Origin: Escherichia coli
Lineage (GTDB): Bacteria > Pseudomonadota > Gammaproteobacteria > Enterobacterales > Enterobacteriaceae
Length of the DNA: 64,000 nucleotides
NCBI RefSeq assembly: GCF_003334355.1
Contig: NZ_QOWP01000001.1
Direction: 5' to 3' (one strand)
Below the pieces are notes generated by a model. The model ran no database searches. It had not been told where the DNA came from and saw nothing but the letters and a program-made list of their open reading frames with translations. Position numbers and translations under genes: made by a program. This document shows, one piece after another, positions 63,319-64,000 of the stretch (position 1 is the stretch's first letter; each line of letters starts with the position of its first letter).

Positions 63319-64000
63319 TCACAAACGCCCTTCCCCCACCCGGTGCTGATAACTCTGCTGAAACGTTATCATCCCCACCTGCTGCCCGGTTTGAATAACA
63401 TGCGGTAACTGGTGGGTTTTCCCTTCACGAATCAAATTCCCCACCGCGGGTGTGTTAATCAGCAATTCAAATAGCGCCACGCGTCCTTCCTGTTTATCCA
63501 CTTCCAGCTTTTGTGACAGCACTGCCCGTAAACTACCTGCCAGTTGATTACGCACGGGGTCTTTTTCCTGCGCCGGAAATGAATCCACCAGTCGCTCAAC
63601 TGCCTGCGCGGCACCACGTGTATGTAAGGTTGCCAGCACCAGATGCCCGGTTTCTGCCGCCGTCAGCGCCAGACGGATTGTCTCACTGTCACGTAGCTCT
63701 CCGAGCAAAATCACATCAGGATCTTCCCGCAATGCGGCCCGCAACCCCGATGCGAACGTCATACAGTGCAAACCAATTTCCCGCTGCTGGATCAAACATC
63801 GCTGGCTGGCATAGAGATATTCCACAGGATCTTCCAGCGTCAGAATATGCGCATCGGCATGTTGATTAAGATAGCCAACCATCGCCGCCAGCGTGGTAGA
63901 TTTGCCACTCCCCGTCGCCCCCGTCACCAGAATCATGCCATTCTCGCTCTTGAGTAATTCCGGCAATACCGGTGGCGCACCAAGCTGTTCGAGCTGTGGA
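63319..64000 (-). CDS. yggR: PilT-like type IV pilus retraction ATPase homologue, 5' end beyond the window edge
   Basis: Minus-strand frame open to the window end; Walker A GATGSGKSTT and PilT-type motifs in the visible C-terminal part (…MILVTGATGSGKSTTLAAMV…). Confidence 0.85.
   Translation of the reverse strand, partial: PQLEQLGAPPVLPELLKSENGMILVTGATGSGKSTTLAAMVGYLNQHADAHILTLEDPVEYLYASQRCLIQQREIGLHCMTFASGLRAALREDPDVILLGELRDSETIRLALTAAETGHLVLATLHTRGAAQAVERLVDSFPAQEKDPVRNQLAGSLRAVLSQKLEVDKQEGRVALFELLINTPAVGNLIREGKTHQLPHVIQTGQQVGMITFQQSYQHRVGEGRL

What the first reader, a model, noticed from the sequence alone, without database searches (positions are those of the whole stretch)
63319..64000. 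Orphan PilT-like ATPase gene at the window edge
A PilT-family retraction ATPase homologue (Walker A GATGSGKSTT) sits alone after a REP cluster, with no pilus assembly genes visible in this window. Its function in a background without functional type IV pili under laboratory conditions is unclear. The gene is truncated by the window end.
Basis: partly seen in the sequence, partly recalled or inferred. Interest (0 to 1): 0.3.

Follow-up and report, generated by a model that had tools for sequence, protein, structure and literature searches.

The report
E. coli yggR, pilus-retraction ATPase gene
This is the last two-thirds of yggR, the well-known Escherichia coli copy of the PilT motor that pulls type IV pili back into the cell; it is an intact, conserved, already annotated gene in its usual place in the genome, so the finding is correct but ordinary.

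Summary
Window 63319-64000, minus strand, carries codons 101-326 plus the stop of yggR. The Walker A sequence GATGSGKSTT is present, and a REP cluster (63136-63318) separates the gene from the convergent ruvX. The window has no pilus genes.

The complete gene, read in a strain identical over window 63100-64000, is an intact 326-codon ORF. It scores 467.7 bits against NCBIfam PilT/PilU (cutoff 319.1) and E=2.6e-82 against the P. aeruginosa PilT structure. It occurs in 5426 of 5426 complete E. coli genomes and is under strong purifying selection (dN/dS 0.04-0.12).

"Orphan" is true only locally:
- E. coli K-12 has the rest of a type IVa pilus set at three other loci: ppdD-hofBC, hofMNOPQ and ppdAB-ygdB-ppdC.
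- A lone pilT placed back to back with yggS is also seen in relatives 61% and 46% identical, so it is the normal pilT position.
- A 2022 preprint showed K-12 YggR fully restores pilus-dependent transformation in Vibrio cholerae lacking pilT or pilTU.

Verdict: already known, low interest.

One side lead lies beyond the window. A perfect CRP-S-type palindrome sits 134-149 bp upstream of yggR, inside yggS, at unusually conserved synonymous sites. It could link yggR to the Sxy competence regulon. This is untested.

The parts
63319..64000 (-). yggR (PilT-type type IVa pilus retraction ATPase), 3' part: residues 101-326, the TGA stop at 63319-63321, and one base of codon 100. The complete gene is 981 bp (326 aa) and would end at window-equivalent 64299.
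   Evidence: Translation. 100% DNA match to annotated yggR in many E. coli chromosomes. NCBIfam TIGR01420 467.7 bits against a cutoff of 319.1. Pfam T2SSE 6e-49. PDB 3jvu PilT 2.6e-82.
63895..63921 (-). Walker A / P-loop GATGSGKST (residues 127-135; Lys133)
   Evidence: G127 and T129-T136 are invariant in the alignment with five PilT relatives of 45-60% identity; only position 128 varies (A, P or S).
63820..63837 (-). Asp box LEDPVE (residues 155-160)
   Evidence: E156, D157, P158 and E160 invariant.
63688..63723 (-). Walker B region DPDVILLGELRD (residues 193-204), including catalytic Glu201
   Evidence: The E201A mutant is used as the ATPase-dead allele in bioRxiv 10.1101/2021.10.23.465551.
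63619..63651 (-). His box TGHLVLATLHT (residues 217-227)
   Evidence: T217-V221, L225 and H226 invariant.
63424..63447 (-). AVGNLIRE, the YggR version of the PilT signature motif AIRNLIRE (residues 285-292)
   Evidence: A285, N288, L289, I290, R291 and E292 are invariant. The two middle residues vary among enterobacterial YggR proteins (AVG, AAG, ATG, AVA, AVS).
63136..63318 (.). REP (repetitive extragenic palindrome) cluster filling the gap between the convergent genes ruvX (62719-63135, +) and yggR
   Evidence: Inverted repeat 63237-63250 / 63255-63268. REP 19-mer found 3 times in the window against 0.01 expected. Fold z = -3.7. No Rfam family matched.

Best explanation
The feature is yggR, the E. 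coli orthologue of PilT.

[quoted passage not shown] It docks on the inner-membrane platform protein of the type IVa pilus machine and uses ATP hydrolysis to return pilin subunits from the pilus base to the membrane. This retracts the fibre.

Inferred for E. coli: the partner machine is the normally silent PpdD ('haemorrhagic coli') pilus and DNA-uptake system. It is encoded at three other loci: ppdD-hofB-hofC, hofMNOPQ and ppdA-ppdB-ygdB-ppdC. It is switched on by Sxy together with cAMP-CRP. YggR would supply the retraction step needed for DNA uptake and, in pathogenic strains, for twitching.

The gene sits alone next to yggS because that is the ancestral pilT position, not because it lost its partners.

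Basis for each step: gene identity, family membership, intact catalytic motifs, conservation and synteny are shown here. Retraction activity is shown in a foreign host only. The native role in E. coli is inferred.
For: Identity
- 100% DNA match to annotated yggR; gene b2950 in MG1655.

Family membership
- TIGR01420 PilT/PilU 467.7 bits against a cutoff of 319.1. The extension and secretion ATPase models (GspE, PilB, ComGA, DotB, VirB11) all score far below their cutoffs.
- End-to-end alignment (residues 1-324) with the P. aeruginosa PilT structure 3jvu, E=2.6e-82. PilT scores higher than PilU: 279.8 against 237.5 bits.
- Walker A, Asp box, Walker B, His box and the invariant residues of the AIRNLIRE motif are all present.

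Maintained by selection
- Present in 5426 of 5426 complete E. coli genomes; at least 80% of its length in 5425.
- dN/dS 0.04-0.12 against Escherichia, Citrobacter, Salmonella, Enterobacter and a Klebsiella-like genome, similar to the neighbouring yggS.

Partner genes
- Present in the K-12 genome. Sxy/CRP induction of ppdD (90-fold) and hofM/yrfD (16-fold) is reported in PMC1635313. DNA uptake after sxy expression is reported in PMC3330819.

Activity
- K-12 YggR (NP_417425) fully complements transformation of V. cholerae delta-pilT and delta-pilTU. It self-interacts and binds V. cholerae PilC in two-hybrid assays. [quoted passage not shown]

Synteny
- Divergent yggS (plus yggT, with or without proC) lies next to pilT in relatives 61% and 46% identical, with no pilus genes within 3 kb. 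Also reported for several plant pathogens.
Against: - I found no E. coli yggR mutant phenotype in the searchable literature (36 papers mention the word, most irrelevant).
- The competence papers I could read do not mention yggR.
- YggR departs from canonical PilT. It lacks the last 15-17 residues, has AVGNLIRE instead of AIRNLIRE and GATGSGKST instead of GPTGSGKST. It cannot support PilU-dependent retraction.
- The gene is occasionally broken: Leclercia adecarboxylata NCTC13032 and one C. amalonaticus assembly, shortened Shigella proteins, and Salmonella Saintpaul lineage IB (PMC8731237). It is therefore dispensable in some lineages.
Confidence: 0.85

Rival explanations
1. yggR is an evolutionary leftover: a still-open reading frame with no current function in E. 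coli, kept only by chance or by its overlap with the yggS control region.
For: - Type IV pili are not seen in laboratory E. coli.
- I found no phenotype in the literature.
- Sporadic disruptions occur in related taxa.
- The first 20 codons of yggR show very low synonymous variation, which could reflect the embedded yggS promoter rather than yggR function.
Against: - dN/dS of 0.04-0.12 holds over the whole gene at synonymous divergence above 1.
- All catalytic residues are invariant.
- The gene is present in every complete E. coli genome.
- The protein is a working motor in V. cholerae.
- A relic would have accumulated amino-acid changes and stops over this evolutionary distance.
Confidence: 0.05
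2. YggR is an active ATPase whose main job in enterobacteria is not retraction of the PpdD pilus. It might act on another filament machine (for example the Gsp type II secretion pseudopilus), or in a process linked to its conserved neighbour YggS (PLP homeostasis, cell envelope).
For: - The pilT-yggS divergent pairing is conserved from E. coli to relatives 46% identical and in the literature.
- In E. coli the two start codons are only 17 bp apart, so the promoters must overlap the coding regions.
- PilT motors are promiscuous between machines.
- YggR has a clade-specific C-terminal truncation and motif changes.
Against: - The same yggS adjacency holds for bona fide twitching PilT genes, so it does not indicate a new function.
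- No data connect YggR to Gsp or to PLP metabolism.
- The simplest partner is the cognate type IVa set present in the genome.
Confidence: 0.07
3. The gene is a PilU-type accessory retraction ATPase rather than PilT.
For: - The NCBIfam model and the RefSeq product name cover both PilT and PilU.
- The AIRNLIRE motif is imperfect.
Against: - It scores higher against PilT structures than against PilU: 279.8, 261.7 and 260.5 bits against 237.5.
- It retracts pili on its own in a delta-pilTU host, which PilU cannot do.
- It occupies the pilT position next to yggS.
Confidence: 0.03

Closest known systems
PilT of Pseudomonas aeruginosa (PDB 3jvu/3jvv) and other type IVa pilus retraction ATPases (TIGR01420)
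   Same: - Same two-domain architecture, aligned end to end (residues 1-324).
- All ATPase motifs are present.
- Same chromosomal position beside yggS.
- Retraction activity demonstrated by cross-species complementation.
   Different: - About 45-50% identity only.
- 326 aa rather than 344-345 aa; the last 15-17 residues are missing.
- AVGNLIRE instead of AIRNLIRE, and GATGSGKST instead of GPTGSGKST.
- No PilU partner, and unable to support PilU-driven retraction.
YggR / PilT of other Enterobacteriaceae (Salmonella, Citrobacter, Enterobacter, Cedecea)
   Same: - 68-97% identical.
- Same 326-aa length except Cedecea at 329 aa.
- Same GATGSGKST Walker A.
- Same 14-17 bp divergent junction with yggS in 25 of the 26 loci where yggS could be read (one reads 2 bp from an alternative start codon; three gave no call).
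   Different: Only allelic differences. The window's allele differs from K-12 at five residues of the full protein.
HofB (E. coli PilB/GspE-type extension ATPase)
   Same: Same ATPase superfamily (Pfam T2SSE) and the same presumed pilus machine.
   Different: HofB has the extra N-terminal domain of extension motors and is encoded in the ppdD-hofB-hofC operon. YggR scores far below the PilB and GspE model cutoffs.

Membership tests
PilT/PilU type IVa pilus retraction ATPase (NCBIfam TIGR01420) | Whole-protein score above the curated family cutoff | tested here: met
   467.7 bits against a cutoff of 319.1, covering residues 2-325 and model positions 1-328 of 343.
PilT/PilU type IVa pilus retraction ATPase (NCBIfam TIGR01420) | Walker A, Asp box, Walker B (catalytic Glu) and His box of secretion ATPases | tested here: met
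   GATGSGKST 127-135, LEDPVE 155-160, DPDVILLGELRD 193-204 and TGHLVLATLHT 217-227. Their core residues are invariant in the alignment.
PilT/PilU type IVa pilus retraction ATPase (NCBIfam TIGR01420) | Short two-domain architecture without the extra N-terminal domain of extension ATPases | tested here: met
   326 aa, aligned 1-324 to residues 1-327 of P. aeruginosa PilT. PilB and GspE chains match only over their C-terminal parts.
PilT proper (as opposed to PilU) | AIRNLIRE signature motif near the C-terminus | tested here: inconclusive
   AVGNLIRE matches 6 of 8 positions, and those six are invariant in the alignment. The preprint reports that swapping the two residues did not change the PilU-dependent retraction phenotype it assayed.
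PilT proper (as opposed to PilU) | Closer to PilT than to PilU, and able to retract pili without another retraction ATPase | tested here: met
   PilT structures score 260-280 bits against 237.5 bits for PilU. Autonomous complementation of delta-pilTU comes from the literature, not from a test here.
PilT proper (as opposed to PilU) | ATP-driven pilus retraction in the native host | not testable with these tools
   Only heterologous evidence exists, in V. cholerae. I found no E. coli mutant data.
PilT proper (as opposed to PilU) | Conserved chromosomal position, divergent from yggS | tested here: met
   E. coli; 26 of 30 enterobacterial loci, with yggS not recovered in the other 4; relatives 61% and 46% identical.
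GspE / PilB extension or secretion ATPases | Score above the family cutoff | tested here: not met
   GspE 154.8 against 630.25, PilB 137.5 against 675.65, ComGA 135.4 against 300.
REP / BIME repeats | Imperfect palindromes of about 35 bp matching the E. coli REP consensus, clustered in an untranslated gap at gene 3' ends | tested here: met
   The gap lies between two convergent genes. The REP consensus used was recalled from memory and then tested against shuffled sequence.
CRP-S (Sxy-dependent CRP) site, for the side lead upstream of yggR | Core TGCGA-N6-TCGCA upstream of a competence gene | tested here: met
   Perfect match at L001 9334-9349, 134-149 bp upstream of the yggR ATG. It is the only perfect match in about 165 kb of E. 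coli DNA examined.
CRP-S (Sxy-dependent CRP) site, for the side lead upstream of yggR | Sxy- and CRP-dependent transcription of the downstream gene | not testable with these tools
   The Sxy microarray paper (Sinha et al. 2009) is not in the library. yggR is absent from the CRP-S papers I could read.

The most novel reading that the evidence does not exclude
yggR may be an unrecognised member of the Sxy/CRP-S competence regulon, transcribed from a promoter buried inside the divergent yggS gene.

The evidence is a perfect TGCGA-N6-TCGCA palindrome 134-149 bp upstream of the yggR start, at yggS codons 39-45. It lies in the 7-codon window with the lowest synonymous variation in yggS (0.013 against a gene mean of 0.246; permutation P = 0.0055 for any window). 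More generally, the two genes share a control region of roughly 230 bp of constrained sequence laid over both 5' coding ends.

If true, retraction would be co-induced with the rest of the E. coli DNA-uptake pilus, and yggS and yggR transcription could interfere with each other.

Against this:
- Most Citrobacter carry TTCGA in one half-site, through an Ala-to-Glu change in YggS.
- The site is absent from relatives 51% and 46% identical.
- Strong codon conservation around the PLP-binding lysine could have a purely translational cause.
Probability: 0.2. Interest if true: 0.3.

Novelty: already known. Interest (0 to 1): 0.1.

Why it matters
It matters little as a discovery. yggR is annotated in every E. 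coli genome, and its motor activity has been demonstrated.

The useful correction is conceptual. A lone pilT beside yggS is the normal arrangement, not an orphan. E. coli carries a complete but normally silent type IVa pilus and DNA-uptake system scattered over four loci.

The open question is what YggR does in E. coli itself and when it is expressed. That bears on the long-standing puzzle of whether and when E. coli is naturally competent.

Tried and rejected
- Frameshift or pseudogene: rejected. The ORF is intact over 326 codons in strains identical over window 63100-64000.
- Hidden pilus operon past the window edge: rejected. The next genes are yggS-yggT-yggU-rdgB-hemW.
- RNA family in the REP gap or in the gene: none found with Rfam at gathering thresholds.
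- Window identical to K-12: rejected. Identity to MG1655 is 99.3% over the last 4.8 kb, with five amino-acid differences in YggR.
- 'yggR' in the blaCMY-2 / ISEcp1 literature: this is a truncated fragment inside a mobile unit and does not bear on this locus.
- Positive control for the strict CRP-S pattern: it did not work. With up to 2 mismatches only ppdD gives a match, and hofM and ppdA give none. Known E. coli CRP-S sites are therefore too degenerate for this scan, which limits what the perfect match upstream of yggR can prove.
- Hairpin or terminator reading of the same palindrome: not supported. The Citrobacter change breaks the stem without a compensating change.
- The search for homologous proteins: it returned only close relatives and did not help with distant synteny. 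The 50%-clustered representative search was needed instead.
- Three papers were not in the library: Sinha 2009 (tried by DOI and PMC id) and Sauvonnet 2000.

Full report
**What is at the coordinates**

On the minus strand an open frame runs from the window edge (64000) down to a TGA stop at 63319-63321.

The 183-bp gap to the convergent upstream gene (ruvX, 62719-63135) is filled with REP-type palindromes:
- One inverted repeat lies at 63237-63268.
- Its 19-mer has three near-matches in the window against 0.01 expected from shuffles.
- The gap folds well below shuffled controls, z = -3.7.
- No Rfam family matches here.

**Identity**

Window 63100-64000 is 100% identical to many E. coli chromosomes. 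The annotation there reads ruvX, a short 'hypothetical protein' inside the REP cluster, and yggR 'PilT/PilU family type 4a pilus ATPase'.

In one such strain the complete gene is 981 bp (326 codons) with no interruption. Beyond the window edge it is followed, 17 bp from its start codon and in the opposite direction, by yggS, yggT, yggU, rdgB and hemW. MG1655 has the same layout, with yggR as b2950.

The window is not K-12. It is 99.3% identical to MG1655 over the last 4.8 kb, and the full protein differs at five residues.

The window is collinear, at 99.1-99.5% identity, with an annotated chromosome running from ygfT to yggR. No pilus gene is annotated in that stretch. Window 50001-55099 was not aligned directly.

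**Family membership**

- The full protein scores 467.7 bits against NCBIfam TIGR01420 (PilT/PilU), cutoff 319.1. Every extension or secretion ATPase model (GspE, PilB, ComGA, DotB, TraJ, VirB11) falls far below its own cutoff.
- Pfam gives T2SSE at 6e-49.
- Against solved structures the best match is P. aeruginosa PilT (3jvu), E=2.6e-82, aligned over residues 1-324. Other PilT structures score 260-262 bits, and a PilU structure scores lower at 237.5 bits.
- Walker A, Asp box, Walker B with Glu201, and the His box are present, and their core residues are invariant in an alignment with five relatives of 45-60% identity.
- The PilT signature AIRNLIRE reads AVGNLIRE; the six positions that are invariant in the alignment are kept.
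- The same alignment shows that YggR stops 15-17 residues before canonical PilT proteins, and that the enterobacterial clade has GATGSGKST where canonical PilT has GPTGSGKST.

**Is it a live gene?**

- It is present in 5426 of 5426 complete E. coli genomes, with at least 80% of its length in 5425.
- A scan of one genome per species returned 30 loci in Escherichia, Citrobacter, Salmonella, Enterobacter, Cedecea, Leclercia and a Klebsiella-like genome. In 28 the ORF is intact: 27 at exactly 326 codons and Cedecea at 329. It is broken in Leclercia adecarboxylata NCTC13032 and in one C. amalonaticus assembly.
- Nei-Gojobori dN/dS against the E. coli allele is 0.04-0.12, with synonymous divergence up to about 2.5 per site, close to saturation. 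That is comparable with the housekeeping neighbour yggS at 0.02-0.14.

This is strong purifying selection, not decay.

**Is it an orphan?**

Locally yes; across the genome no. MG1655 carries three other loci:
- ppdD-hofB-hofC (pilin, extension ATPase, platform) at 114.5-117.5 kb.
- hofMNOPQ (alignment complex and secretin) at 3519-3523 kb.
- ppdA-ppdB-ygdB-ppdC (minor pilins) at 2962-2964 kb.

The assignment of these roles rests on standard knowledge of the pil and hof genes.

Cameron and Redfield showed that ppdD and yrfD (hofM) are induced 90-fold and 16-fold by Sxy in a CRP- and cAMP-dependent way (PMC1635313). Sinha and Redfield showed that sxy expression gives detectable DNA uptake (PMC3330819).

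A solitary pilT is also the norm:
- A relative 61% identical has divergent yggS and yggT as neighbours.
- A relative 46% identical has divergent yggS-proC-yggT and no pilus gene within 3 kb.
- Two papers note the conserved divergent yggS-pilT pair in several bacteria (PMC8787154, PMC9605639).

**Function**

A 2022 preprint (10.1101/2021.10.23.465551) expressed K-12 yggR (NP_417425), calling it pilT_Ec, in V. cholerae.
- It self-interacted and bound V. cholerae PilC in two-hybrid assays.
- Unlike other PilT proteins, the ATPase-dead forms could not support PilU-driven retraction.
- The authors also noted the AVG substitution and the missing 15 C-terminal residues.

So the motor activity is shown in a foreign host. 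I found no E. coli mutant phenotype among the 36 papers containing the word yggR. The role in the native host therefore remains an inference.

**Mechanism, with its basis**

- Shown here: the protein is a full-length PilT-type ATPase with intact catalytic residues, under selection, in the ancestral pilT locus.
- From family knowledge and the preprint: it forms a hexamer, docks on the platform protein (HofC in E. coli), and uses ATP hydrolysis to depolymerise the PpdD fibre.
- Inferred: in E. coli this happens when Sxy and cAMP-CRP switch on the pilus genes, and it serves DNA uptake and, in pathogenic strains, twitching.

**Side lead, outside the window**

Because the yggR and yggS start codons are only 17 bp apart, each promoter must lie inside the other gene. 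I scanned for the CRP-S core.
- One perfect TGCGA-N6-TCGCA lies 134-149 bp upstream of the yggR ATG, at yggS codons 39-45. The simple expectation is about 0.016 per 17 kb (my arithmetic).
- The site stays at the same position in 28 of the 29 loci that have enough upstream DNA and shifts by 1-3 bp in the more distant ones. Most Citrobacter have TTCGA in one half, through an Ala-to-Glu change in YggS.
- Across 26 yggS sequences, synonymous variation in codons 39-45 is the lowest of any 7-codon window: 0.013 against a gene mean of 0.246, with permutation P = 0.0055 for any window. The first 50 codons of yggS are generally constrained.
- The first 20 codons of yggR are likewise constrained: 0.07-0.08 against a mean of 0.32.
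- A relative 61% identical keeps one half-site (TGCGA-N6-CCGCA). Relatives 51% and 46% identical have no site.

There are rival causes. Codon-accuracy selection next to the PLP-binding lysine is one; a second low-variation window at codons 171-180 has no such regulatory rationale. Chance is another.

The hairpin or terminator reading of the same palindrome is not supported, because the Citrobacter change is uncompensated.

Known E. coli CRP-S sites are too degenerate for my strict scan to recover, so the scan has no working positive control. Whether yggR responds to Sxy could not be checked, because the Sxy array paper is not held.

**Verdict**

The feature is an already known, annotated and functionally tested gene in its normal context. 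Interest is low. The only non-trivial residue is the possible Sxy/CRP-S control of yggR from within yggS.

Noticed in passing
Outside the window: window-equivalent 64433-64448; L001 9334-9349; MG1655 locus L003 5215-5230: A perfect CRP-S-type palindrome TGCGA-N6-TCGCA lies 134-149 bp upstream of the yggR start, inside yggS codons 39-45. It is the only perfect match in about 165 kb of E. coli DNA examined, and it sits in the yggS window with the lowest synonymous variation. It is a possible Sxy-dependent control site for yggR. It is not mentioned in the CRP-S papers I could read.
   Followed up: partly
Outside the window: L001 9140-9370 (window-equivalent about 64239-64469): The yggR and yggS start codons are only 17 bp apart and point away from each other, so each promoter must lie in the other gene. 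Synonymous variation is strongly reduced in the first 20 codons of yggR (0.07-0.08 against 0.32) and in the first 50 codons of yggS (0.09-0.15 against 0.25-0.43). This is consistent with a shared control region of roughly 230 bp overlapping both coding sequences.
   Followed up: partly
window 63142-63270, minus strand (L001 8043-8171): RefSeq annotates a 42-aa 'hypothetical protein' (WP_001278270.1) lying entirely within the REP cluster between ruvX and yggR. It is most likely a gene-caller artefact on palindromic repeat DNA.
   Followed up: no
window 11664-11682 and 51980-51998: Two further REP-type matches to the same 19-mer occur elsewhere in the window.
   Followed up: no
window 59219-63996 compared with MG1655: The window is not K-12; it is 99.3% identical to MG1655 here. 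Its yggR allele is at least 99% identical in only 286 of 5428 E. coli records, and most strains are 95-99% identical. That seems fairly divergent for an E. coli core gene, though I did not measure other genes for comparison.
   Followed up: no
L033 (Leclercia adecarboxylata NCTC13032), L036 (one C. amalonaticus assembly); proteins P0009 and P0016 (Shigella): yggR is interrupted in these two genomes and shortened in Shigella flexneri and S. boydii proteins (313 and 302 aa). A Salmonella Saintpaul lineage with a premature stop is reported in PMC8731237. Sequencing error was not excluded for L036.
   Followed up: no
Representative search, proteins P0122, P0124-P0127, P0129, P0132: Several of the best-scoring 50%-cluster representatives are 700-1000 aa long with two PilT-like stretches. 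They are either tandem PilT-PilT or PilT-PilU fusions, or merged gene calls in metagenome contigs.
   Followed up: no
window about 4391-5489, 25189-25372 and 26096-26155 (by annotation transfer from L002): The window also contains well-known special features: the prfB programmed frameshift, the 6S RNA gene ssrS, and the type I toxin gene ibsC.
   Followed up: no
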